A stretch of DNA of 64,000 nucleotides, taken from the IMG/VR virus record IMGVR_UViG_3300009495_000011. The stretch is one strand, 5' to 3'. Source of the stretch: an uncultured virus (IMG/VR IMGVR_UViG_3300009495_000011) (taxonomy: Duplodnaviria; Heunggongvirae; Uroviricota; Caudoviricetes). Each line of letters begins with the position of its first letter. Positions within the stretch are counted from its first letter, which is position 1. The notes beneath the pieces are model-generated. The model searched no databases. It was not told the DNA's origin and saw only the letters and a list, made by a program, of their open reading frames with translations. Of this stretch, positions 9,001 through 32,545 are shown in pieces. The translations under genes and the position numbers were made by a program.

Positions 9001-10232
9001 AAGTCAAAATTTGCAGCGTCAACAATATACCCAGTATCTCGAGAACATTTAGCTGCATCAAAACTAAATCCGCTGTACTTATTATTTAAGAAAGCAATAA
9101 CTTCGTTTTGAATAAAGGTTTTGTTGTTGTCAATTAATGTTTCAGCATTTAGTAGACCAACATCTTGTGTTTGAGTTTCGTTAGGAGCTTCGCCAACGCC
9201 GTTGTCGTAAAAGTCGACAACTTTTTGTCCTAGTGATTCAACTGTTGCTGCTTCGCTTGCTGTTGCAGTTTTTGTACCGTCAAATTGCTGCGCTACTGCT
9301 ACTTGTGTTGTATCAATAATAGGCGTGTTAGTAACAACTGATTTAGCAAGATCTCTAGCACGTTGTAAACCGTATGATGTAGCAACATCTTGAGCTTGTT
9401 TAACTAGTGCAGAACTTTCTAATGAATATGCTGCACCTGCGTGTGAGGTAGCTGCATCGCCGCCAAAGCGCAAGTCATTTTCAATTGCATCAATAATTAA
9501 GCCAACATCTCGTTCACACTTAGCTTGATCATAAGTAATGTTAAATGCTTTAGTACTAAAGTTTAGAACTTCTGTTTGCAAGAAAGTTCTGTTTACTTCT
9601 AATAAGTCTTTAGCTGCATATGCACTTTCACCTGGATCAACAACTGGTGTAAAAATACCGTCGGATGCAATTTGTGCAGCACGTTTAATTGTTTTAACAG
9701 CGCCTGTGCGTCCGTCATTTGTATCGTCACCGTACTCTGCACTTACGTAAACTCTGTTACCACCTAAGGAGCCTGGGTCACTCCATTTAGTTTGGCCAAA
9801 GCCTAGATTCTGTAAAATTTGTCCTTTGCGAGCATCGGTATCTGGAAGTATAATATCATAAGACTCTTCCAATTCTGGCGGTGCTTTAATATTAACTGAA
9901 CTACTACCAAATTGTCCAAGTTCTTTTAATTTAATCGATCCTTGATCATCAATTTCTAAATCATCGGATACATAAACCTTTGTACCGTCTACACGTAATT
10001 TTTCAATGCCGTCGACTTCCATTGTAACAACGCCATTTCCTTGGTCGTTTACTACAACTCGTGTGTCACCTTTTTCAATTTGTTGTGTTACATCTTTAAT
10101 ACTGCCGTCGGACTGTTTAATAAACATTTTACCATCAGCAGTGTTAATAGCAATTTCGCCTAGGTCTAATTGCTCTGCAAGAGGCTCTTGTCCGCTAACA
10201 TTATTTCGTTTGTGTAATATTTTATTTGCCAT
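1..10232 (-). CDS. Giant tail fibre / virion structural protein (>3410 aa, 3' end outside window; not in ORF track)
   Basis: ATG at 10232 gives MANKILHKRNNVSGQEPLAEQLDLGEIAINTADGKMFIK, a typical T4-like fibre N-terminus. The same frame is protein-like at every spot-check down to base 3 (GSGLNADLLDGLHASSFLR and AFMTFHIGGDYAVHFGLDGSTNDLAY, gp34-like motifs). ATAAATA box upstream. Not every codon was checked for stops. Confidence 0.88.
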   Translation of the reverse strand, partial: MANKILHKRNNVSGQEPLAEQLDLGEIAINTADGKMFIKQSDGSIKDVTQQIEKGDTRVVVNDQGNGVVTMEVDGIEKLRVDGTKVYVSDDLEIDDQGSIKLKELGQFGSSSVNIKAPPELEESYDIILPDTDARKGQILQNLGFGQTKWSDPGSLGGNRVYVSAEYGDDTNDGRTGAVKTIKRAAQIASDGIFTPVVDPGESAYAAKDLLEVNRTFLQTEVLNFSTKAFNITYDQAKCERDVGLIIDAIENDLRFGGDAATSHAGAAYSLESSALVKQAQDVATSYGLQRARDLAKSVVTNTPIIDTTQVAVAQQFDGTKTATASEAATVESLGQKVVDFYDNGVGEAPNETQTQDVGLLNAETLIDNNKTFIQNEVIAFLNNKYSGFSFDAAKCSRDTGYIVDAANFDLLYSGNAESHYAGITYLNATASLVRSDQKQETLAGIDYARSLAEKVVLGQQVDYLYQTTVAQNTELTPGTQTEATTVFNNISKVYSILNNGIGTANGVVTTDAGKLNSETLIDQNQDFIKEEVIGYLTTTYPGFSYDQNKCRRDVGYILDAISYDLTHGGNNESIQAALAYYQWTAKDAVNLQLAETRAGITYAIDLAKLVIVNQDPATSYQGIFAQFKDAGNPGDATSQTILTGLGSLIDDIITDGDSTTIGLDIDPNNSVPSAVQDTVNANAILAANKEFIQAEVVAFIEENFGNFNYDPVACERDVGLIVDAVKFDIEHGGDAESIFAGISYYNNVTTGTGEITGDAIEVLRKQLQPTLDAVEYARDLLANVVLQNAVSNLYQSGTTQTFDGTNPSTTSVAQTVFNRANTILTILKNGLGTTNSFTKTTGIGALNTEALLQANTAFLQEEVLGYINNQYPGLTYDQASCRRDVELIVDAIAYDLTHGGNTNSIAAGTAYYRQAAALVVTGQSTETLAGLVHLKELAQKVVRNVTVDVTYSATPQVFDGANPGDVTSANTVGTLADIVIDIVDDGLSPYINITANGALTTDQDILDAGALIASNKLFIQKEVVAYVDGSWINFSSNYNQTTCSRDVGLILDAINFDLTWGGTSNAVAAGIAYFKQSSQLTLQRQLVQTIDGIMHAIRLAQQVVENYPVVSFQNTAAQVTDNLNPGSAEAITKIAELGALIEDIVIDGASATAGVTIFGNGIVPNSNIAVQNAADLIALNRSFIQAEVVSYINTYFTNFTYDTDFCYRDVGLFIDAIQYDLIFGGNERAIEAGKSYYIGNTIVIPGQEFQTVLANRYFQSLVDNILQNIVNKKLYQNVTGQITDPTKIVDGTTLGIVEAEFNTIVDIIENGPTSPNIPTEVEGAFNISYTTIMVSTGEYKEDNPVIIPDYVSIVGDNLRTTIIRPLNANQDIFRIRNGAYLLGVTFKDGLDAFNVPSFTGRYCTAFDDPFDTGVDRTGYIGLRDRPLITQSPYIQNVSIISFLGLSGCLVDGSKVITPNVPRFAIEAENPVFGETPEQGKSMVANAYTMLSFGGIGWRLTNDAYAQIVSCFQIFLGNGCWCQSGAYLSVTNSATNFGLYALRSSGYSANSFVFDRGVIAEVGAQASQQKLITVGTKRTPVNQFVIRLYDDDEYNNLANDITNSFKTIPNIVYFNAGELGELYGDAANYEVVAVGSTTFTVQIGSGKNLGSWVEGGTVDINGAFNPAAVLSASYNNTNGALEIEVTTLPNIGDIVTLTTLTFDGTNYPVNEEGSLSLEDNTITIPGHGLVTGDALTYRRNGNIEINGFADQGLYYVEVLTDDIIRLYQDDSRGFVADIIDVSTGQHYFETQTEEFFIDDIILDADSNKLTHNKYQVLTLAPGTYNFEPGDTIEATTGVYRNKAFVYTYEAATRQLTVSVEKADNSGSLTRIFFDATSIIDRDSSAIPQSNIPVTGFTSRTDLFTAEFTIDPTIVGGVLTNTGALKGTFIRLHRPSIVNSSSHTWEYAGSGTDYNALPQNGGITREEFEQFSDLPGRVYSSGTNELGDFKVGDFIVAENRTGNITFKNTVTVGELSALKLAVSDVVIEAISTDPGLGDNEPGGATDTRLITQNAARSFLANRLGDFIDKNVSTNSVSGAVPQMNAQGLLNSDIIPATRNFSLFTTDKKFGRFNLTDDIPAQEPLQGDIAQERYSRTFFTLSAPIALNEDDVIIELNTGATAIVDEDNGGAATVYLANIEGTFSNNISGNVLNVRGSNTTTYITNTGSSEVRDIQYTMVQDSSSQFLRYLPSGAAFVNGQTITAANSKTQGVITGQVEGVALALDLGNISTGNGYVPSTGSQTYKGVVLSNVSGTGTGAIADISVTNGKVTNVDLTRGGSGYAVGNALTATVDQLGGQNTQDFQVSILGVDNRVFVELLAGKFVATTSSNDYTEDGNAVVTTVPLGNTTLTAFNADTIGNGGNVDYPTSRITINSHIFDNGDVVNYASSPNPAIGGFIQGESYFVKVVDANTIELYNRYDLNAANKVIFTSSSTGTHAFIINYVDTRKDRIYAQDHGFTNGQAFRFVGANPPTGMASGGYYYAGTVSQNTFSVHEFQQDAENSVNGVTQGAINFIQTGSGSADFIHQNITIYGEVNTSGNVETNWALTGSANVDASNIVSGVISTSRLAAVGTANSDTYLKGDSSWDYATRTVRTALNSPLNITGNFYTSGGQNFYFKNTQFDIDRTDGTLGNQSFTNLGVAAFSKAQFNVNSGEVELKAGVLDAGTLDGLDSQYFLDPGNLLNPVPVSRGGTQIDQYIAGDMIYATSPTTLNRLPIGSQGAVMVVDELGNPAWSNDVAPFVEDTNNFGVSRPLEIRHDVTNTPAVGIGVGMQFQVETANNNREVGGTIDAVASDVTFGSEDFSFKFNLMAAGFLAERMVLDSLGNLAIDGDLNVDGGDIKTTKTSATVYDTTVTSLSIGRAATSVTIGADKTGELRVRNATLVVGGDSIETQPVDAKIKAPNSLGTNKQGPDLTIQGGASTGSGVAGSVFIDTGASGSSGSTSNTQVNRVEISGSDNHTHNLDFGRSSQGTQQIGKVGVKGPITGQFNVNGSVLELTPGAGTGSGQGAKVNIYGSNSIGSGSGIQSSELIASFSGDAIRLNKDVITQATSLGTNQSTFDLVNDTATTLNIGGAATAIDIGASSGYLHVNSADQAVSTTTGALRVDGGGSFGKNLYVGGNLVAAELTLTGAIDGNSYNVGGIEVIDTNRRFISSGGTTGELSKVHGISFDWDGNYGAVGGYVNHGISSRNETWGANDSLSINSYNNVNVRLDTNSNNAAASTFFRINNDVSQTNGNIVLSARGDGKVGINKDPSGTYNLDVGGSFNATTGYINGGAIWTDANDGDGSGLNADLLDGLHASSFLRVDTGAAFSGGVFKISAPATTIQNTGEVNTLQLYQGNGANSYDAFMTFHIGGDYAVHFGLDGSTNDLAY
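6550..9530 (-). repeat. Seven tandem ~155-167-aa helical protein repeats, core motif C-x-R-D-(V/T)-G-x-x-x-D-A-x-x-x-D-L-x-x-G-G
   Basis: In-frame Cys codons at 9516, 9045, 8580, 8088, 7587, 7101 and 6612, e.g. KCERDVGLIIDAIENDLRFGGD, KCRRDVGYILDAISYDLTHGGN, FCYRDVGLFIDAIQYDLIFGGN. Confidence 0.9.
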
Positions 10233-16261: not shown

Positions 16262-16678
16262 TTATGGTGCTGGGTCATCGCCTTCGAAGTCGTCTTCATC
16301 AACGCCTACATTGTCGATAACAGCATCATCGCCTGCTTCTTCCATTTCAACAGTTGCACCAGTTCCAGTGAAGTCCCAGTTAATAGTTAAACCGTTATCC
16401 ATTGTTACTTTGTGTGCAGCAATCTTTGTTACCTGACGTGGTGTTGCACCGTCAAGTACTGTAATAGTCATTTCACCAGCTGCTACTGCGCCTGATGCTT
16501 TGTCAACTAGTACACATGTTGCTTCGACAGTTCCGTCTGAGCATAAGAATTTTTTTGAACCTTTTTGTTTAACGATCCAGCCGTTTACACTAGCTGTTCC
16601 ATTGTGAAATTGTACTTTGATTTCGTTTCCTCCGGCAGTTGGTTCTCCGAAGTATCTTTTATTAAGTGGACGTCCCAT
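16262..16678 (-). CDS. Conserved virion protein (138 aa, MGRPLNKRYFG...), possible head decoration or fibre adaptor
   Basis: Strong AAGGAG SD, late promoter upstream, acidic tail; function inferred from position only. Confidence 0.65.
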   Translation of the reverse strand: MGRPLNKRYFGEPTAGGNEIKVQFHNGTASVNGWIVKQKGSKKFLCSDGTVEATCVLVDKASGAVAAGEMTITVLDGATPRQVTKIAAHKVTMDNGLTINWDFTGTGATVEMEEAGDDAVIDNVGVDEDDFEGDDPAP

Positions 16679-16684
16679 TGTTTT

Positions 16685-16745
16685 CTCCTTTTTGACGTTC
16701 TAGGTCTACGCGGCGGGTTTCCGCATAATTCCTCGCAATAGAGGA
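16685..16745 (-). promoter_or_regulatory. Structured 5' leader (three hairpins abutting the SD)
   Basis: Minus strand: TCCTC-TATTGC-GAGGA, TATGCGG-AAACCCG-CCGCGTA, GAC-CTAGAAC-GTC, then AAAAAGGAG. Confidence 0.5.
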
Positions 16746-16762
16746 TATCTCTATAACAAAAG

Positions 16763-25563: not shown

Positions 25564-26391
25564 ATGAGTTCGGTTTTAACCAAGCACAAAAGACAGCCAA
25601 AAATCTTTGTTGATATTCCATCACAATTTAGATTTGTAAAAGAAGGCACTAGTAATAGTACATTCAAAGAAGTACCGATTTACTCAATGTCGGGTGCTGA
25701 TGAACTTATGATGAAAAATCCAGAAGCATTGTTAAGTGGACTAGCAACTAAGAATCTAATTAAGTCATGTATTCCTAGTATTGTTGAGCCAGGCAATATT
25801 TCTATAATAGACATCGAATTTTTGTTAGTAGCAATACGCATAGCATCCTACGGAGAAAAATATAATCAACACAGTTCTTGTCCACATTGTGGTGAGGGAA
25901 ACAAACACGAAGTAATTTTAGGACACATCTTAGAAAGTCTTAGTGATCGCAAGTATTTAGAAACTGTTAAAATGCACGAGCTAACTTTTAAACTTAATCC
26001 GTTAACTTACGATGCATACACTGCTATAGAAAAAGTATCTTTTGAAACTCAGCGTTTGATAGCACAAACTGCTAGCCAAAAAGACCTAACTGTTGAACAA
26101 CAGCGAGAAATTGAATACACTGCATATAAAAAACTAAATCAAGTAATTGAAGAAAGTATTGCAGGACAAGTTGTTGAAATTATCACACCTGATGGTTCAG
26201 AATACGACCCAGCACAAATAAGAGATTTTATTTTAACAAGTGATAGAGAATATTTTGAACTGTTAAAAAAGACAATTGAAAAAAATAACGAAGATCAGCA
26301 AATAAAACCGCTAGAGGTCAAGTGCGGTGAGTGCGCTAAAGGTTACACGCAGTTGTTCACAATGGATGATTCAAGTTTTTTCGGAAGCTAA
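25564..26391 (+). CDS. gp26: Baseplate hub / tail assembly chaperone (gp26-like)
   Basis: DIEFLLVAIRIASYGE, two CxxC pairs (CPHC, CGEC), C-terminal SSFFGS. Confidence 0.75.
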   Translation: MSSVLTKHKRQPKIFVDIPSQFRFVKEGTSNSTFKEVPIYSMSGADELMMKNPEALLSGLATKNLIKSCIPSIVEPGNISIIDIEFLLVAIRIASYGEKYNQHSSCPHCGEGNKHEVILGHILESLSDRKYLETVKMHELTFKLNPLTYDAYTAIEKVSFETQRLIAQTASQKDLTVEQQREIEYTAYKKLNQVIEESIAGQVVEIITPDGSEYDPAQIRDFILTSDREYFELLKKTIEKNNEDQQIKPLEVKCGECAKGYTQLFTMDDSSFFGS

Positions 26392-26616: not shown

Positions 26617-27651
26617 TTACCAAGTACCAGCGCCTACAATGTCTTTAAAACTTTGATTTGCTGCTGCTGGAGTTGGTGCAGCATCTGGTTGTTCTTGTTG
26701 ATTAAGTCTATCTTGAATTTCCTGCGGCATGTCTTGAACATCGTCTTCACTTACTCCGCCACCAAATTCATCCATACCGTTTAGTATAGTTTCAGCTTGT
26801 GATTCCATTTGAGTTTTTAGTGTATCTGCTACAGTTTCGCTAGCTGCACGAGCCGCATCTGACAGTCCTTCAGCAGATTCGAACCCTGCTTTAACTGCTA
26901 TAGACGCTGCTAAACCTATTACTCCTGGAAGCAATGCTTCAAGTGTCCAAATCCATGCGTCACGCATTTTTTGTTTGCCGTAATCAGTTGTCATAAACCA
27001 ACTTAGGCCAATCTGTGCAGCAAAAGTTCCTAACCAAACTATCGGAGCGCCAGGTCCAGTTGCAAGACCAAATCCTCTAACTACCCACATAATTGAGTTA
27101 ATAACTCTTGTCAATATTTTTGTACTTGCCCATATAGTTGTAATAAACACTGCTGCTGATCTTGCTATCGCAGGAAATACTTCTTTAAGGTGTGTCCATA
27201 TAGCTGCTGAAATTAAACTAGTAACTTCTACTGTGTCAAATTCTTCGCCTGCTGCTTCTGCACGTTCATTTTCTTCTTCAATGACGGCTGTAGCAATCCC
27301 GGCCATATCAGCAAACAGATCATTTAATAAGAATATCCATTTAATTTTACCAATGCCAGGTATACGTTGTAAACGTGTTGACCATTTTGCAAAAGCATTA
27401 TCCATGTTTTCCAACTTGAGAGCTGGATTATTAGCACTTCGCTTAAAATTTCTCCACTTAGCATTTGGCGATTGTAGTCTAGCTGTTCTGGCATTCCAGG
27501 TTCTTGCGGCTCTTCTTGCATCATCAGCACTAGTAGCTTTTACTGTTGTGCCATCAGGACGAGTTAACATCTCAGCTGCGTCATCCCAAACAAATCCAGG
27601 GAATTCACTAACTCGATATCTTGTTTCGTTTACAATGTCAAATACTTTCAT
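26617..27651 (-). CDS. Hypothetical late protein with several hydrophobic segments (344 aa)
   Basis: Own ATAAATA promoter; hydrophobic stretches such as AAVFITTIWAS, PIVWLGTFAAQIGLSWFM and LLPGVIGLAASIAV. Confidence 0.75.
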   Translation of the reverse strand: MKVFDIVNETRYRVSEFPGFVWDDAAEMLTRPDGTTVKATSADDARRAARTWNARTARLQSPNAKWRNFKRSANNPALKLENMDNAFAKWSTRLQRIPGIGKIKWIFLLNDLFADMAGIATAVIEEENERAEAAGEEFDTVEVTSLISAAIWTHLKEVFPAIARSAAVFITTIWASTKILTRVINSIMWVVRGFGLATGPGAPIVWLGTFAAQIGLSWFMTTDYGKQKMRDAWIWTLEALLPGVIGLAASIAVKAGFESAEGLSDAARAASETVADTLKTQMESQAETILNGMDEFGGGVSEDDVQDMPQEIQDRLNQQEQPDAAPTPAAANQSFKDIVGAGTW

Positions 27652-27681: not shown

Positions 27682-27688
27682 TATTTAT
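27682..27688 (-). promoter_or_regulatory. Late promoter (ATAAATA) for the 344-aa gene
   Basis: CATAAATAC ~30 nt upstream of ATG 27651. Confidence 0.7.
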
Positions 27689-27781
27689 GTTAGAAATGAG
27701 CTAAAGCTCATTTTAGTTATCGCTAACGCTCAAACTACATCACTTCGTTTAATTTAAATGATTTAATATATGATATAATTG

Positions 27782-28192
27782 CATTATTACGAATGTAATA
27801 ATGTTTAAGTTTCATGTAGATCGTTTCAGTCAGACGGAACCTGTTACGGCCCCGTCGTCTAAAAGAAAAGCTTCATGTGAGTCTTATCCAGCCTAGACAT
27901 TGGAAGTAGGTGTTTGTTATACTGCTACACAATGGGCTCTGACCTTTCCCAACCTACGTCGACATCGTTGTTTCCAACTACCTCTCGCTTCGTTCCTATT
28001 GCTAAAGAGTTTTTATGTGTAATTTGCAGTTTTTCGACTGACAGCAATCAATCTATATCAACCAGTGAGCCCAATTTGTTTGATGGCTTCCTACCTCTGG
28101 GTAGTCGATCAATATGTTACGTGTGTCCTTCTCAGGGGACCTTTTCCACAGCGGTATTACAAACTGGCCCGCTAACCTTATGTGCTGTATTG
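27782..28192 (-). ncRNA. Putative large, highly structured (pseudoknotted) non-coding RNA
   Basis: The only long ORF-free gap in a densely coded window; three GNRA-capped hairpins, G-U pairs valid only on the minus strand, and several 6-7-bp long-range complementarities (see findings). Confidence 0.7.
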
Positions 28193-28193
28193 A

Positions 28194-28628
28194 TTATGCC
28201 TGTGGTGGATTGTTTTTGAGATGTTCTTTGAGAATAGTTGAACCGCCGACTCGTACATTGATAATACCGTTGTAGTATTGATCTGTTTCAAGTACTCTGC
28301 GTTCAAACTGTTCGCGGGCCTCTAAATAACTTGCTATGCCTCTGCTCGGACAAATATGTAATATTTCTCTTGTGAAATTTTCTGCGCCTAACCGTTCAAC
28401 GTCTGCGTTAAGTCTATCACTGGAACCCCAGTAATCTCTCCAATCACTTTCTTTTGTTGAACGTCTCTTATTCTTTTTGCCTTTGAGCGGTGGTTTAGTT
28501 ACCTTAAACTTTGCTAGTTTTTTGCCTACGTACATCATGCCATTAGTCTTGTTTGTGATAAGATAAACAAATGCTTCGCAGCCTTCTGGCAGTTCTTCAA
28601 TTTGTTTTCCTTCATAAGTCCAATGCAT
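28194..28628 (-). CDS. GIY-YIG family endonuclease (Seg-like, 144 aa)
   Basis: AFVYLITNKTNGMMYVGKK (GIY-YIG variant), ESDWRDYWGSS, NFTREIL, YLEAREQ, YYNGII. Start placed at ATG 28628, after a TAAGTA box. Confidence 0.85.
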   Translation of the reverse strand: MHWTYEGKQIEELPEGCEAFVYLITNKTNGMMYVGKKLAKFKVTKPPLKGKKNKRRSTKESDWRDYWGSSDRLNADVERLGAENFTREILHICPSRGIASYLEAREQFERRVLETDQYYNGIINVRVGGSTILKEHLKNNPPQA

Positions 28629-28656
28629 AATGTACTTAACATTTGCCTTAATTGCC

Positions 28657-28860
28657 TTAGTCGGTCTTGGTTTTTCTTGTAGTATTATGCTTAATATGTA
28701 TTTCTTCAGAACGCTCTTTAGCAAGCTGTCTCATGTCTCGAAGGCATCTCCGTACTTCTCTATGAGTACGTACGGAGTTGCGAGCTTCGAATTTTTCATT
28801 TGCCTTGAAGTATTCTAAATACATTTGCGTTAACTTATCGTGTGTGTCGTTGTCGTCCAT
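28657..28860 (-). CDS. Small basic helical protein (67 aa), possibly Hc1/histone-H1-like DNA-binding
   Basis: GAGA SD; ANEKFEARN..THREVRRCLRDMRQLAKERSEEI resembles the Hc1-like N-terminal pattern. Family call is tentative. Confidence 0.55.
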   Translation of the reverse strand: MDDNDTHDKLTQMYLEYFKANEKFEARNSVRTHREVRRCLRDMRQLAKERSEEIHIKHNTTRKTKTD

Positions 28861-28871
28861 CTACATTCTCT

Positions 28872-30644
28872 TTATTCAACAATATCAATATCGTTTTCAT
28901 AGTTTGTAAATCCGTTTTCTTTTACAACTCTCATAACATGATTAACTCGTCCGATAAGCTCGTCTTTATGTGAAATAAGGAATACATTCTTATCTCGTTC
29001 ACGTCCCATCTTTTTAAGTACGCTCAACGCACTTTCAACACCGGCTGTGTCCATGCCCGAGTCGATAAGTTCATCAATGAATAATAAGTTAACACCTTGA
29101 TACAATGATTCCCAAACGTCACGGAATGCAAAGCTCAGGCCTAAGATAAGTCTGTTGCGCTCACCTCTTGACAGGTTATCAAAGTCTAAGTCCTGTCCTA
29201 GCTGTGTAATTTCTACGTTCAAATCATTTAAGAATTGAACTTGATGCGGCAGTCCTAGCTTGTCAAGATAATATGTAAGTCTGTTGTTAAGATATGCTAA
29301 GTTTTGATCAATAATCTTTTTACGAATAAAACTATCTTTGTTAGTTAGAAGTTTAAGTAAAAATTCTTGATGCTCTTTAAACTCTGTCAGTTCATTAACA
29401 GCTGACCAATCAATTGCTTGCATTGCACTATTGTTTAGCTCGTCAATTTGTGTTTGATACGGATCAGTTTCTTGTTGTTTGTTTGACAGTGCTTGCTTCA
29501 AACTGTCAACATTTTGTCTATGGTCATATGCTTCTTTGGCACTTTCATAGAACGTTGTAGGCTTGCCATTGATGTCACCAATCTCTTCAAGTGCAAACGC
29601 AACTTCTTTTACTTTTCCTGTAATTTCTTCAGCATATGATTTAGCGTCGACAAGTTCTTTGTCTTTGCGAGCTGCAATCTCTGCTTTTTTATCTGCGTGA
29701 AGTTCTTGTCCGCATGTATAACATGTTGCATCTTCAAGATCTGCGATGTCTTTTTTGGCTTTTTCAACAGACTTGTCGGCACGTAATAGTGCTGGCTCTA
29801 ATGTGCTTAATTCTTTTTTAAGAGCCATAATAGCGTTGTTATGTTGCGTCCAGTTAGACAACTTTTCATGCGATTCAAGTTCAACTTCGATATCAAGTTT
29901 CTCTAATTCTGTAATACCTTGCAACAATTTTGCACAGTCTTGTTCTTTTTTAGACAGCCAAGCACGTTGTGTACGACCTAAACTATTAATAGTTGATTCA
30001 ATTTTACTATTAGCAGTTTGTATCGCATCAATTTTAAGAGTTTCGCTCGTGATGGCATCTTTAGTTACACGGATTTGATCTTTAAGATTAGTTGCCTTTT
30101 CAGAAAGGATAGTAATACCAAGCAACTGCTCGATAATAGCTCTTTGATCATTAGTACGCATACTAAGGAACGGTTCAGTGTATGTGTTAAGTGCAACAAT
30201 ATGTTTAAACATATCGTGCGACATGTCCAACAACTCGTTAATTGTTTCTTGTGTCTTGCGACTGTCGCCCTGTGACTCGTCGATCATTGCTTGCTCTTCG
30301 CCGTTGATGAAGAACTTGAGTACGTTAGGAGAACGTCCGCGTTCAATACGATAATCAACACCGTTCTTTTCAAAGTGCAGTGTAACTAGCATGCCTTTTG
30401 AGTTAGTTTTGTTAATTAAATTGTTGCGTTTAATGTTTGTAAGTGCCTGTCCGTACAGCGCATATGACAGAGCATTAATGATAGTAGTTTTACCTGTACC
30501 ATTACGTGATCCTGTATCGTCACCACCTTGGTCCAAATTCTCGCCTAGTACAAGCGTAAGTTGCTCTTTGTTAAAAGCAACTGCTTGGGTTTGATTGCCC
30601 ACGCTCATAAAATTCTTTACGGTTAAGTCTTTAATTTTAATCAT
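28872..30644 (-). CDS. gp46: Recombination endonuclease ATPase subunit (gp46 / SbcC / Rad50-like)
   Basis: Walker A NGTGKTT, coiled coil with CYTC zinc hook, LSRGE signature, Walker B LLFIDE, ISH. Confidence 0.96.
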   Translation of the reverse strand: MIKIKDLTVKNFMSVGNQTQAVAFNKEQLTLVLGENLDQGGDDTGSRNGTGKTTIINALSYALYGQALTNIKRNNLINKTNSKGMLVTLHFEKNGVDYRIERGRSPNVLKFFINGEEQAMIDESQGDSRKTQETINELLDMSHDMFKHIVALNTYTEPFLSMRTNDQRAIIEQLLGITILSEKATNLKDQIRVTKDAITSETLKIDAIQTANSKIESTINSLGRTQRAWLSKKEQDCAKLLQGITELEKLDIEVELESHEKLSNWTQHNNAIMALKKELSTLEPALLRADKSVEKAKKDIADLEDATCYTCGQELHADKKAEIAARKDKELVDAKSYAEEITGKVKEVAFALEEIGDINGKPTTFYESAKEAYDHRQNVDSLKQALSNKQQETDPYQTQIDELNNSAMQAIDWSAVNELTEFKEHQEFLLKLLTNKDSFIRKKIIDQNLAYLNNRLTYYLDKLGLPHQVQFLNDLNVEITQLGQDLDFDNLSRGERNRLILGLSFAFRDVWESLYQGVNLLFIDELIDSGMDTAGVESALSVLKKMGRERDKNVFLISHKDELIGRVNHVMRVVKENGFTNYENDIDIVE

Positions 30645-31655
30645 TTATAGCTCGTTATAGATGTCAAGTAGCATCTTCTTATTAAAGTTTTCAGTGTCTA
30701 GTGCAGAAATCTCACCTGCAACAATTTGATCAACACTTTCAAATTGTGCAATGTCTAGTTCAGTTGATATTTCTTCTAACTGCTTCTGCGGAATTAAAGT
30801 AATCTCTCTACAGTCATAGCCTGTTAAGAAAGTTTCTTTAATAAAACTTGCTTCTTCGAAGCTGATAGGAAGATCTAATTCAACACGAAGATACATCTTG
30901 CTCTTAATAAATGTATCTTGTTCGTCAATTAGTCTGCTTAGTTTAATTGTACGATACTTAGGACAGTTGGGCCAATTAATGTATTCGGGCTCTGCATCGT
31001 TTTGTCGATCAAGAATCATCATACCGCGATCATCGTCCCACGCATCTGCATAGTTGTGTGGAAATGCATTGCCGATGTAATGAATTGATCCTTGTACTTG
31101 ACGCTTATGGAAGTGTCCACTGAATACATATTTTTGATTAGCAAAGTTTTCTGGACGCAGTTCACCGTGATCAGGCATCTTTACAAGTGCGTTCATATAA
31201 AAGTTAGGAAGTTCAAAGTGTCCAAACATATATTTTGCTTTGCACTTTTGAATTTTCTTCCACTCATCGCCTACTAGCCACGGAACAAGTGCAACATCGT
31301 CCTCTTCATACATCTCGTCTACGATAGTAATCCCTGGAATATGACGTCCGAACATGGTTGATGTTACGTCACGCTTGTCTTTGTAGTACAAGTCATGGTT
31401 GCCAACAAACATATAGAACTTGTCAAATGCTTTACCTAGTTTTTCTAAAGACCTAATAGTAGCGTCCATAGTTGTAAGATTTAAGCTATTGCGATTGTGA
31501 TGCCAGTCTCCGCAGAAGATACCAGTTTCGCAACCGTTAGCTTTTGCCTGTTCAATATACCAATCTACAAATTCTTCACAGTCGTCATTGTGTGTTCGAC
31601 TGTTGCCTTTTAATCCAAAGTGGATATCTGTAAAAACTGCTGCTTTCTTAAACAA
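30645..31655 (-). CDS. gp47: Recombination endonuclease nuclease subunit (gp47 / SbcD / Mre11-like)
   Basis: Metallophosphoesterase motifs DIHFG, GDWHH, GNHD, GHFE, SGHFH. Confidence 0.95.
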   Translation of the reverse strand: MFKKAAVFTDIHFGLKGNSRTHNDDCEEFVDWYIEQAKANGCETGIFCGDWHHNRNSLNLTTMDATIRSLEKLGKAFDKFYMFVGNHDLYYKDKRDVTSTMFGRHIPGITIVDEMYEEDDVALVPWLVGDEWKKIQKCKAKYMFGHFELPNFYMNALVKMPDHGELRPENFANQKYVFSGHFHKRQVQGSIHYIGNAFPHNYADAWDDDRGMMILDRQNDAEPEYINWPNCPKYRTIKLSRLIDEQDTFIKSKMYLRVELDLPISFEEASFIKETFLTGYDCREITLIPQKQLEEISTELDIAQFESVDQIVAGEISALDTENFNKKMLLDIYNEL

Positions 31656-31717: not shown

Positions 31718-32545
31718 TTAATCGGGGGCATTGTTGGCGTCTCTTGCCAAACTAGCTTCCCATTCTGCATTACCAGTTCGTGTAAAGCTCGGATTCATGC
31801 CATTTGCTTCTAAGATATCATCTCGAATGTTTTGATTACGCTTTTCAATGTTGATAACACGTACAAAACTGTTAGTAACAGCAGCAGTATAGTATGCAAA
31901 CGGATTATTAGACTTTGATTCGTCAAACTGCAAACCAATCTGTGCTAACTGTAGGATAGCTTGTCCGCGCATCTCATCATTGTAAGTGTATCCACGTACA
32001 TTACCGCGAGTAGCATACCGATCACACAGCTTCATCCACATAAGAGCTAACTTATTTGTAGCTTTACCGTGTTTATGATTAAAGCAACCATTCTCCATAC
32101 CGCCTTCCCAGTGTGATTTTCCTACACACACAAGGTTTCCTTCGTCGTCAAACTTGTAATGCTGAAATGGCGGAAAGTTTAACTTTACTTTACGGTCTGC
32201 ATCTGTTTTTGGATTTTTCTTTCTTCCGGGTTCGTCTGGAATGTGATCAAACGTCATGATACGGAAGATTAATTCTTCCTTTGTAATACTTTTATAGTCT
32301 ACTTCACATTCAGCTTGCTTGACCTTCTCGCCATTAGCTTTACGTCGGTCATACTCAGCAGTGCTAAGGCGTTTTACTTTGTTGCGCTTTGCTTCTGCGA
32401 TAGTAAGATGATTAATTTTATCAGTACTTGGCAAAATTATGTCAAACTGATTGTAATCTGGGTCTACATAAGAGCAAAAAGTTGCCTTTGACTTATGTAT
32501 TTCGGACAGTATGTCCTTGTTGTTAAGATAATTTACTCTTTTCAT
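31718..32545 (-). CDS. gp55: Late-transcription sigma factor (gp55-like)
   Basis: NYLNNKD, NVRGYTYNDEMRGQAI, FDESKSNNPFAYYT; order 55-47-46 as in T4-like phages. Confidence 0.85.
   Translation of the reverse strand: MKRVNYLNNKDILSEIHKSKATFCSYVDPDYNQFDIILPSTDKINHLTIAEAKRNKVKRLSTAEYDRRKANGEKVKQAECEVDYKSITKEELIFRIMTFDHIPDEPGRKKNPKTDADRKVKLNFPPFQHYKFDDEGNLVCVGKSHWEGGMENGCFNHKHGKATNKLALMWMKLCDRYATRGNVRGYTYNDEMRGQAILQLAQIGLQFDESKSNNPFAYYTAAVTNSFVRVINIEKRNQNIRDDILEANGMNPSFTRTGNAEWEASLARDANNAPD

What the first reader, a model, noticed from the sequence alone, without database searches (positions are those of the whole stretch)
27782..28638. GIY-YIG nuclease immediately followed by a ~410-nt ornate ncRNA: candidate novel ribonucleoprotein system
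Seen (minus strand): a TAAGTA box, a 144-aa single-domain GIY-YIG gene with a basic insert (KPPLKGKKNKRRSTK) but no obvious appended DNA-binding domain, then straight after the stop a long ORF-free tract. It has GNRA hairpins CCT-GAGA-AGG (28136-28127), TTA-GCAA-TAG (28005-27996) and GTTG-GAAA-CAAC (27978-27967), and hairpins AGCGG/CCGCT (28173-28150), CTACC/GGTAG (28104-28091) and GACGGGGCC/GGTTCCGTC (27856-27833; G-U pairs only on this strand). Long-range pairs: ACAGCA/TGCTGT (28188-28183 with 28046-28041); loop GCCAGT/ACTGGT (28168-28163 with 28066-28061, a pseudoknot); TGGGCTC/GAGCCCA (28073-28067 with 27939-27933, crossing GTAGGT/ACCTAC at 27957-27906); and TAGATTG..TCAGTC with GACTGA..CGATCTA (28055-28036 with 27831-27817). 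ACATGAA occurs twice near the 3' end. I cannot match it to tRNA, tmRNA, RNase P or group I/II introns. Known: compact nucleases with an adjacent structured RNA define IscB/HEARO and TnpB systems, and large ornate RNAs (GOLLD, ROOL) occur in phages. Inference: a co-transcribed nuclease-RNA pair (RNA-guided or scaffolded nuclease, ribozyme, or replication/recombination primer acting with neighbouring gp46/47).
Basis: partly seen in the sequence, partly recalled or inferred. Interest (0 to 1): 0.88.

Follow-up and report, generated by a model that had tools for sequence, protein, structure and literature searches.

The report
Folded phage RNA beside swappable nuclease
A large, intricately folded RNA followed by DNA hairpins sits at one fixed spot in a family of giant water-borne bacterial viruses; the DNA-cutting gene beside it is interchangeable, so the RNA more likely helps start copying of the viral genome than guides that enzyme.

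Summary
The tract is a real, conserved, pseudoknotted element with no Rfam match.

It is not a GIY-YIG partner. In the same slot (gp46, nuclease, element, baseplate hub) the nuclease is often an unrelated RusA-like resolvase: 58 of 80 RusA-anchored loci carry the element and 0 of 85 have the GIY-YIG nearby. A complete 382-kb genome has the window's own subtype and no such GIY-YIG. Close GIY-YIG relatives occur without it.

The 3' hairpins have DNA-type loops (GNYA 70, GNRA 32; C-GNA-G on opposite strands), as at primase sites and downstream of the ColE1 origin. Best model (0.45, untested): an RNA-primed replication origin. The GIY-YIG is probably a junction resolvase. This scan reached a similar reading before on another genome (e1-5735907).

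The parts
28872..30644 (-). gp46/SbcC-like recombination nuclease subunit (gp47-like 30645-31655 and late sigma factor 31718-32545 upstream); fixed left neighbour of the locus
   Evidence: synteny
28657..28860 (-). 67-aa ORF of no known family, conserved between gp46 and the GIY-YIG
28633..28638 (-). TAAGTA box 5 nt before the start codon; possible late-promoter-like site (function inferred)
   Evidence: 75 of 95 loci
28194..28628 (-). 144-aa SegE-like GIY-YIG nuclease with invariant Y22, Y33, G35, E103, N120; predicted homodimer; occupies a slot held by a RusA-like resolvase in relatives
28036..28190 (-). RNA 5' domain, subtype A: pseudoknot 28188-83 with 28046-41; hairpin 28174-49; stem 28150-47/28123-20 enclosing hairpin 28140-25; long stem 28115-06/28064-55; optional hairpin 28104-091; hairpin 28053-36. 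Replaced by a different 5' domain in subtypes B and C
   Evidence: alternative domain
27891..28031 (-). RNA core: long-range helix 28031-15/27932-14 crossing helices 27963-59/27895-91 and 27957-52/27911-06; stem-loop 28009-27981 with invariant GGAA that can pair with 27905-02; variable-length hairpin 27978-67; hairpin 27951-33 whose loop can pair with 27834-28
   Evidence: the last two pairings are nearly invariant, so covariation does not test them
27871..27878 (-). direct repeat 1 (ACATGAAG)
27833..27856 (-). conserved hairpin between the repeats, followed by a TGACT-type motif
27810..27817 (-). direct repeat 2 (ACATGAAA), always changing together with repeat 1
   Evidence: six columns identical in 97 of 97 sequences
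27782..27803 (+). perfect hairpin 1; in homologues its loop reads C-GNA-G on the strand opposite to the RNA
27740..27781 (.). A+T-rich spacer (82% over 27740-27810; genome 62%), possible unwinding element
27716..27735 (-). hairpin 2: tandem G-A pairs under a GCGTTAGC mini-hairpin (DNA-type GNNA loop)
27694..27713 (-). perfect hairpin 3 (C-TTTA-G here, C-GNA-G in 68 of 134 homologues)
26617..27651 (-). 344-aa ORF of no known family behind a TAAATA box (27682-27687); not conserved at this place in most relatives
25564..26391 (+). baseplate hub gene, fixed right neighbour of the locus

Best explanation
The locus is most likely a single-copy, RNA-primed replication origin of PA5oct-related large myoviruses. 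Shown: a conserved pseudoknotted element, then an A+T-rich spacer flanked by hairpins with DNA-type loops on opposite strands, whose orientation follows the RNA and not the flanking genes. Inferred: the transcript (read through from the nuclease gene or from its own sigma70-type promoter) folds so that its 3' part stays hybridised to the template as an R-loop and primes leading-strand synthesis, as ColE1 RNA II and T4 oriF transcripts do. The displaced strand then folds the mini-hairpins that load primase or helicase. The paired direct repeats would be lineage-specific protein-binding or re-annealing sites. The adjacent nuclease, GIY-YIG or RusA-like, is probably the phage's junction resolvase: a neighbour, not a specific RNA partner.
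For: One copy per record in 4 of 4 large records with a profile hit, at one syntenic place. Nuclease interchange. Loop statistics: GNYA 70 vs GNRA 32; C-GNA-G in 68 of 134 third hairpins on the RNA-like strand and 60 first hairpins on the opposite strand. PMC13037366 (passages) places GCGNNAGC/GCGNAGC mini-hairpins at primase sites of G4, St-1 and alpha3 (GCGTTAGC, as here) and in ssiA. ColE1 has one GAGCG-N-AGCGA match (0.07 expected), downstream of its RNAI region on the strand opposite RNAI. T4 oriF = promoter plus A+T-rich element forming an R-loop (PMC3016281 passages). In an inverted locus the module still follows the RNA. Own sigma70-type promoters precede it in L006, L066, L381. Contigs of RNA libraries cover it in 4 of 4 runs laid.
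Against: No direct evidence of initiation. Fourfold-site skew follows gene strand with no replication switch in 3 records. Raw skew minima lie within 6 kb in 4 of 6 records but match the divergent-transcription point in the window's genome. The spacer is the most A+T-rich 70-mer only in the window's genome; 19-142 places equal it in the other five. T4 oriF needs no structured RNA, and this RNA's invariant, multi-pseudoknot core looks more elaborate than priming requires. Atu_ph07 and Vibrio phage 2.275.O have no model hit in the fetched slot. The ColE1 motif is short (14 of 200 shuffles match). Nearest-neighbour energies do not favour DNA folding.
Confidence: 0.45

Rival explanations
1. A free-standing structural or catalytic non-coding RNA (GOLLD/ROOL-like scaffold, or a ribozyme that uses the two repeats as alternative substrate sites); the DNA hairpins are a separate neighbouring signal.
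For: Invariant core, several pseudoknots, A-rich linkers and swappable 5' domains. 20 RNA runs from 17 studies hold part of the stretch, and contigs lie on the element in 4 of 4 runs laid.
Against: The hairpin module travels and inverts with the RNA. No internal segment was seen to co-vary as a complement of the repeats (by eye). No Rfam ribozyme match. Contigs show neither strand, ends nor level.
Confidence: 0.27
2. The element works with whichever resolvase sits beside it: a recombination, fork-arrest or concatemer-resolution site where RNA-opened DNA hairpins or cruciforms are cut by the GIY-YIG or RusA-like enzyme next to gp46/47.
For: A nuclease gene stays adjacent in most loci, in either orientation. 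The two families exclude each other in the records tested. The GIY-YIG models as a homodimer (0.69, best control 0.16; mark reached by 20 of 30 solved pairs and 1 of 23 single chains; runs agree in 100% of contacts, pLDDT at least 88).
Against: gp46 and the hub gene are equally constant neighbours. Extra genes intervene in some loci. The same GIY-YIG serves phages with no element after it.
Confidence: 0.15
3. One reading: a specific GIY-YIG ribonucleoprotein, RNA-guided or RNA-scaffolded like IscB or TnpB.
For: 72 of 73 eligible loci found by an RNA pattern had the GIY-YIG within 1 kb upstream. The protein has a basic insert and no separate DNA-binding domain.
Against: The same subtype lies behind RusA-like genes (profile E 1e-48 to 1e-65 in 11 loci) and in a complete genome without PF19835. 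Element-less GIY-YIGs fall next to the window's protein in a quick tree (supports 86-88, not starred). No guide-like variable unpaired segment is seen. The gene is single-copy and shows no sign of mobility.
Confidence: 0.05
4. A cis-regulatory 3' UTR or leader (stability, antitermination or translation control of neighbouring genes).
For: It begins at, or overlaps, the stop codon of the upstream nuclease gene in many loci.
Against: Upstream and downstream genes and their orientation vary; some copies have their own promoter and diverge from the nuclease gene.
Confidence: 0.08

Closest known systems
ColE1 RNA II preprimer with downstream primosome-assembly region
   Same: Long structured transcript, then a GA-GC-GNA-GC-GA hairpin motif on the same strand (one match in ColE1). 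The identification of that stretch as the assembly site is recalled.
   Different: No sequence similarity; no RNAI match in the window; pseudoknots, paired direct repeats and a hairpin on the opposite strand; in 350-kb-class lytic phages.
T4 oriF/oriG R-loop origins
   Same: Promoter, transcript and A+T-rich element near a switch of transcription strand (PMC3016281 passages).
   Different: T4 R-loops need no specific sequence or fold; here the fold is strongly conserved.
Primase sites with DNA mini-hairpins (G4, St-1, alpha3 origins; ssiA)
   Same: GCGNNAGC/GCGNAGC hairpins, including GCGTTAGC (PMC13037366 passages).
   Different: Those act on single-stranded genomes or strand-displacement replicons without an upstream ornate RNA.
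ARRPOF, GEBRO, PAGEV plasmid motifs
   Same: 223-349-nt structured motifs proposed to act in replication, perhaps as ssDNA (PMC5737381 passages).
   Different: No Rfam match; plasmid-borne.
GOLLD / ROOL ornate RNAs
   Same: Large, multi-pseudoknot, phage-associated.
   Different: No Rfam match; no tRNA in the window; tied to a DNA hairpin module.
IscB-HEARO/omegaRNA and TnpB-reRNA
   Same: Small nuclease gene next to a structured RNA.
   Different: GIY-YIG fold, interchangeable nuclease, single fixed locus, no guide segment, no HEARO match.
SegE-like GIY-YIG PF19835 / phrog_447 (labelled 'NAD synthetase' in databases)
   Same: The protein is a member (E 4e-33, 3e-37); I-TevI catalytic domain is the closest fold (Z 8.6, rmsd 2.7, 82 aligned).
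   Different: No DNA-binding tail; its exchange with a RusA-like gene suggests a resolvase role rather than homing.

Membership tests
OMEGA RNA-guided nucleases (IscB/TnpB) | RuvC/HNH nuclease | tested here: not met
   GIY-YIG by profile and fold
OMEGA RNA-guided nucleases (IscB/TnpB) | RNA obligately paired with its nuclease family | tested here: not met
OMEGA RNA-guided nucleases (IscB/TnpB) | variable guide at an RNA end; mobile, varied contexts | tested here: not met
   fixed single locus; variable part is a self-paired hairpin (by eye)
Rfam families (RNase P, tmRNA, group I/II introns, HEARO, GOLLD, ROOL, OLE, ARRPOF and others) | covariance-model match | tested here: not met
   none at gathering score; two chance snoRNA hits at E<=10; none in six distant loci; no tRNA/tmRNA
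ColE1-type RNA-primed origin | long structured transcript upstream of the initiation site | tested here: inconclusive
   structure met; transcription only from RNA-library contigs; initiation site unknown
ColE1-type RNA-primed origin | ssDNA primosome hairpin downstream on the displaced strand | tested here: inconclusive
   motif and loop types fit; binding untested
ColE1-type RNA-primed origin | antisense RNA I and sequence homology | tested here: not met
   no RNAI match in the window though the model finds it in ColE1; no plasmid similarity
ColE1-type RNA-primed origin | persistent RNA-DNA hybrid, RNase H processing, priming | not testable with these tools
   needs experiment
T4-type R-loop origin | promoter plus downstream A+T-rich unwinding element | tested here: inconclusive
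   spacer 75% A+T on average vs 55% in the RNA body, exceptional in 1 of 6 records
GIY-YIG superfamily, SegE-like | fold and conserved Tyr, Gly, Glu, Asn residues | tested here: met
Holliday junction resolvase (function) | dimeric nuclease that cuts four-way junctions symmetrically | tested here: inconclusive
   dimer predicted; replaces RusA-like gene; cleavage not testable

The most novel reading that the evidence does not exclude
An undescribed class of ornate RNA that is the core of a phage replication origin and does more than anneal: it folds into a defined tertiary structure, possibly catalytic, that positions or makes its own primer end at one of two co-evolving repeats and hands the opened DNA to hairpin-loaded primase, with an interchangeable resolvase kept alongside.
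Probability: 0.2. Interest if true: 0.92.

Novelty: new variant of a known kind. Interest (0 to 1): 0.7.

Why it matters
I found no account of how PA5oct-related jumbo phages start replication, and the cultured PA5oct probably carries a distant copy, so the question becomes testable. The RNA is a new large pseudoknotted family with modular domains, a good structural target whatever its role. The gene swap also gives a functional hypothesis (junction resolvase) for a GIY-YIG family with matches in 780 phage records that is often mislabelled 'NAD synthetase'.

Tried and rejected
Rfam, ARAGORN and blastn against phages and plasmids found nothing meaningful. Group I, group II and RNase P resemblances were considered from recalled motifs and dropped: no model match, and the pairings they need do not covary.

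Skew as an origin test was uninformative. The 'most A+T-rich window' result did not generalise. The repeat spacing (49-77 nt, mostly 53-62) is not locked to helical phase.

PA5oct was not hit by either covariance model or by the profiles. Its membership rests on synteny, one genome-wide match to a conserved hairpin motif at 76347 and a similar 3' module seen by eye. The G001-type copies score only E about 0.05, although the single whole-genome hit is in the slot. Model R1 gave two weak hits in Melnitz away from its GIY-YIG (E 0.01, 0.05), taken as noise.

The four ncRNAs listed for PA5oct (PMC7318152 passages) lie elsewhere; of its supplement I saw the file list and parts 1-2 of the spreadsheet only. 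In run X5 the GIY-YIG gene had almost no contig cover while the element did; contigs cannot rank levels, so this is not used. Of 119 pattern matches in cellular genome contigs, 3 were true elements and give no reliable host. The PDB sequence search gave no significant hit. The careful protein tree did not finish. The metagenome-contig collection and the large protein searches were not used.

Full report
Setting. The window is part of a 159.6-kb phage contig, about 44% complete. Its gp46 is closest among annotated records to PA5oct-like, Phosso and Atu_ph07 jumbo phages (45-49% identity). On the minus strand: late sigma factor, gp47, gp46, a 67-aa ORF, the GIY-YIG (28628-28194), the non-coding tract and a 344-aa ORF; the baseplate hub gene converges from the other side.

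The element is real. No Rfam family, tRNA or tmRNA matches it. Of 80 loci fetched with the protein, 2 had no downstream DNA, 7 run straight into an S-adenosylmethionine decarboxylase gene, and 71 of the 78 show the element, by profile or by eye. In 51 subtype-A sequences the 5' helices pair in 88-100% of cells, with changes on both sides in 1-5 pairs each; G-U outnumbers A-C (for example 157 to 2), fixing the minus strand. The long-range helix 28031-15/27932-14 gives -10.2 kcal/mol for cognate against -6.6 for non-cognate partners. The stem at 28009-27981 scored only 0.74 in the register I gave and rests on covariation seen by eye. In 97 core sequences the 3' helices pair in 96-100% of cells. 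Two pseudoknots there are nearly invariant and therefore untested. These counts are not phylogeny-corrected significance tests.

Modular family. Subtype B joins the A core to a different 5' domain, which it shares with subtype C (95.5% paired, 16 of 22 pairs with double changes, 0 of 500 shuffles as high). A model of the C 3' core placed 13 of its 15 hits at E<=1 in 361 kb on the syntenic element, including A and B copies. All subtypes end alike: repeat, hairpin, TGACT-type motif, repeat. The repeats differ between lineages but match within a copy: six columns are identical in 97 of 97 sequences, including all 11 substitutions, and other lineages use AGATAATG, GGATAATG, GGGACAGA or ACAGGAA (153 elements). 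I found no internal complement that follows them; this remains unexplained.

Not a GIY-YIG partner. A search starting from an RNA motif gave 72 of 73 eligible loci with the GIY-YIG upstream, but gp46 and the hub gene were as constant. Starting from gp46 showed an ORF-free gap in this slot in most loci with enough downstream DNA. The GIY-YIG was adjacent, one gene away, inverted (L209, L238) or absent, and then usually replaced by a RusA-like resolvase, phrog_244. Among 80 loci fetched with a RusA alignment, 46 had the 3'-core model (E<=0.1), 20 the 5'-domain model and 11 the full window-type profile at E 1e-48 to 1e-65; the union is 58 of 80, leaving out 12 loci with only short or weak profile hits. 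None of 85 RusA loci had the GIY-YIG nearby. G021 (381.9 kb, 100% complete) has the window's subtype, a RusA-like gene and no PF19835. PF19835 was absent from 13 of 14 RusA-slot records, the exception being a weak hit in a 298-aa frame; both controls rang. phrog_244 was absent from 14 of 14 GIY-slot records (29-75% complete, so absence is not proven) and present in both controls. Conversely, Methylophilales phage Melnitz has a 73% identical GIY-YIG after its ribonucleotide reductase genes with only about 150 nt of intergenic DNA behind it.

The protein. It is a one-domain GIY-YIG (pLDDT 92; I-TevI catalytic domain Z 8.6) with invariant active-site-type residues. A homodimer through residues 101-137 is supported but not shown: 0.69 against a best control of 0.16, a mark reached by 20 of 30 solved pairs and 1 of 23 single chains, with full agreement of runs and pLDDT at least 88. 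Four of six cultured phages with this short GIY-YIG have neither endonuclease VII nor phrog_244; one has a weak and one has strong endonuclease VII hits. Inference: it is the junction resolvase.

The 3' module. After repeat 2 come a perfect hairpin, an A+T-rich spacer, a tandem-GA hairpin and a third hairpin. In 134 distinct modules the tandem-GA tetraloops are GNYA 70, GNRA 32, the reverse of the RNA preference. The third hairpin has C-GNA-G (68) or C-TTTA-G (28) on the RNA-like strand, and the first has C-GNA-G on the opposite strand (60). PMC13037366 (abstract and passages) describes GCGNNAGC and GCGNAGC as very stable in DNA, much less so in RNA, and present at primase sites of G4, St-1 and alpha3 and in ssiA. 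That TTTA loops are DNA-type is recalled. ColE1 carries one such motif downstream of its RNAI region. Where the element is inverted the module still follows it, so it is not simply a terminator of the convergent gene.

Mechanism. Shown: structure, strand, single fixed locus, nuclease exchange, loop types. Inferred: transcription (contigs of RNA libraries cover the element in 4 of 4 runs laid, and 20 runs of 17 studies hold part of the stretch, without strand, ends or level), R-loop formation, priming and primosome loading, by analogy with ColE1 and T4 oriF (PMC3016281 and PMC5778457 passages). Against: no replication-specific skew, a spacer that is exceptional in only 1 of 6 records, and no detected copy in the slot of Atu_ph07 or Vibrio phage 2.275.O. 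I put the origin model at 0.45, a free structural or catalytic RNA at 0.27, a resolvase-coupled site at 0.15, a UTR at 0.08 and a GIY-YIG ribonucleoprotein at 0.05.

Novelty. Eight literature searches returned no description of this RNA. I read keyword passages of PMC7318152, PMC5778457, PMC13037366, PMC10085705, PMC5737381, PMC3016281 and bioRxiv 10.64898/2026.09.22.753630, and only listings and abstract openings of the rest. Large published lists of candidate viral RNAs, whose supplements I did not see, could contain it. Earlier notes of this scan on other genomes reached a similar reading; I had recorded mine, and they are not evidence. New here are the RusA exchange, the complete GIY-less genome, the co-varying repeats and the strand-specific loop statistics.

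Noticed in passing
window 16676-16746 (-): Rfam freshwater-2 RNA just above its gathering score (52.1 vs 49.9), directly before a start codon.
   Followed up: no
window 28194-28628 and 780 phage records: phrog_447 is labelled 'NAD synthetase' but is a short GIY-YIG; its exchange with a RusA-like gene suggests it is a widespread phage junction resolvase.
   Followed up: partly
L202 9140-10390 (PA5oct 75.8-77.0 kb): Sigma70-type promoter, then about 1.2 kb annotated only with tiny ORFs; probably a distant copy of the element rather than coding.
   Followed up: partly
L208 about 9200-9900; L222 about 9020-9870: A different-looking conserved structured sequence fills the same slot and ends in the same kind of tandem-GA module; no Rfam hit in L208 and no hit of my models in either.
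   Followed up: no
L006-L008 3430-3510; L066 3410-3445; L381 2900-2940: Sigma70-type promoter inserted between the nuclease gene and the element.
   Followed up: partly
L009, L011-L013, L018, L020, L029: GIY-YIGs 82-86% identical to the window's, followed by an S-adenosylmethionine decarboxylase gene: the nuclease in another context without the element.
   Followed up: partly
L014, L021-L024, L035, L037 variable hairpin: The optional internal hairpin often carries GCGAAGCGG-type sequences, themselves DNA mini-hairpin motifs.
   Followed up: no
L565, L578, L586: True copies of the element inside cellular genome assemblies, probably phage contigs in bins.
   Followed up: no
L205 764-999 and 14452-14902 (PA5oct ncRNA001, ncRNA002): Two very abundant published ncRNAs of unknown function; no hit with my profiles or the 5'-domain model.
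   Followed up: partly
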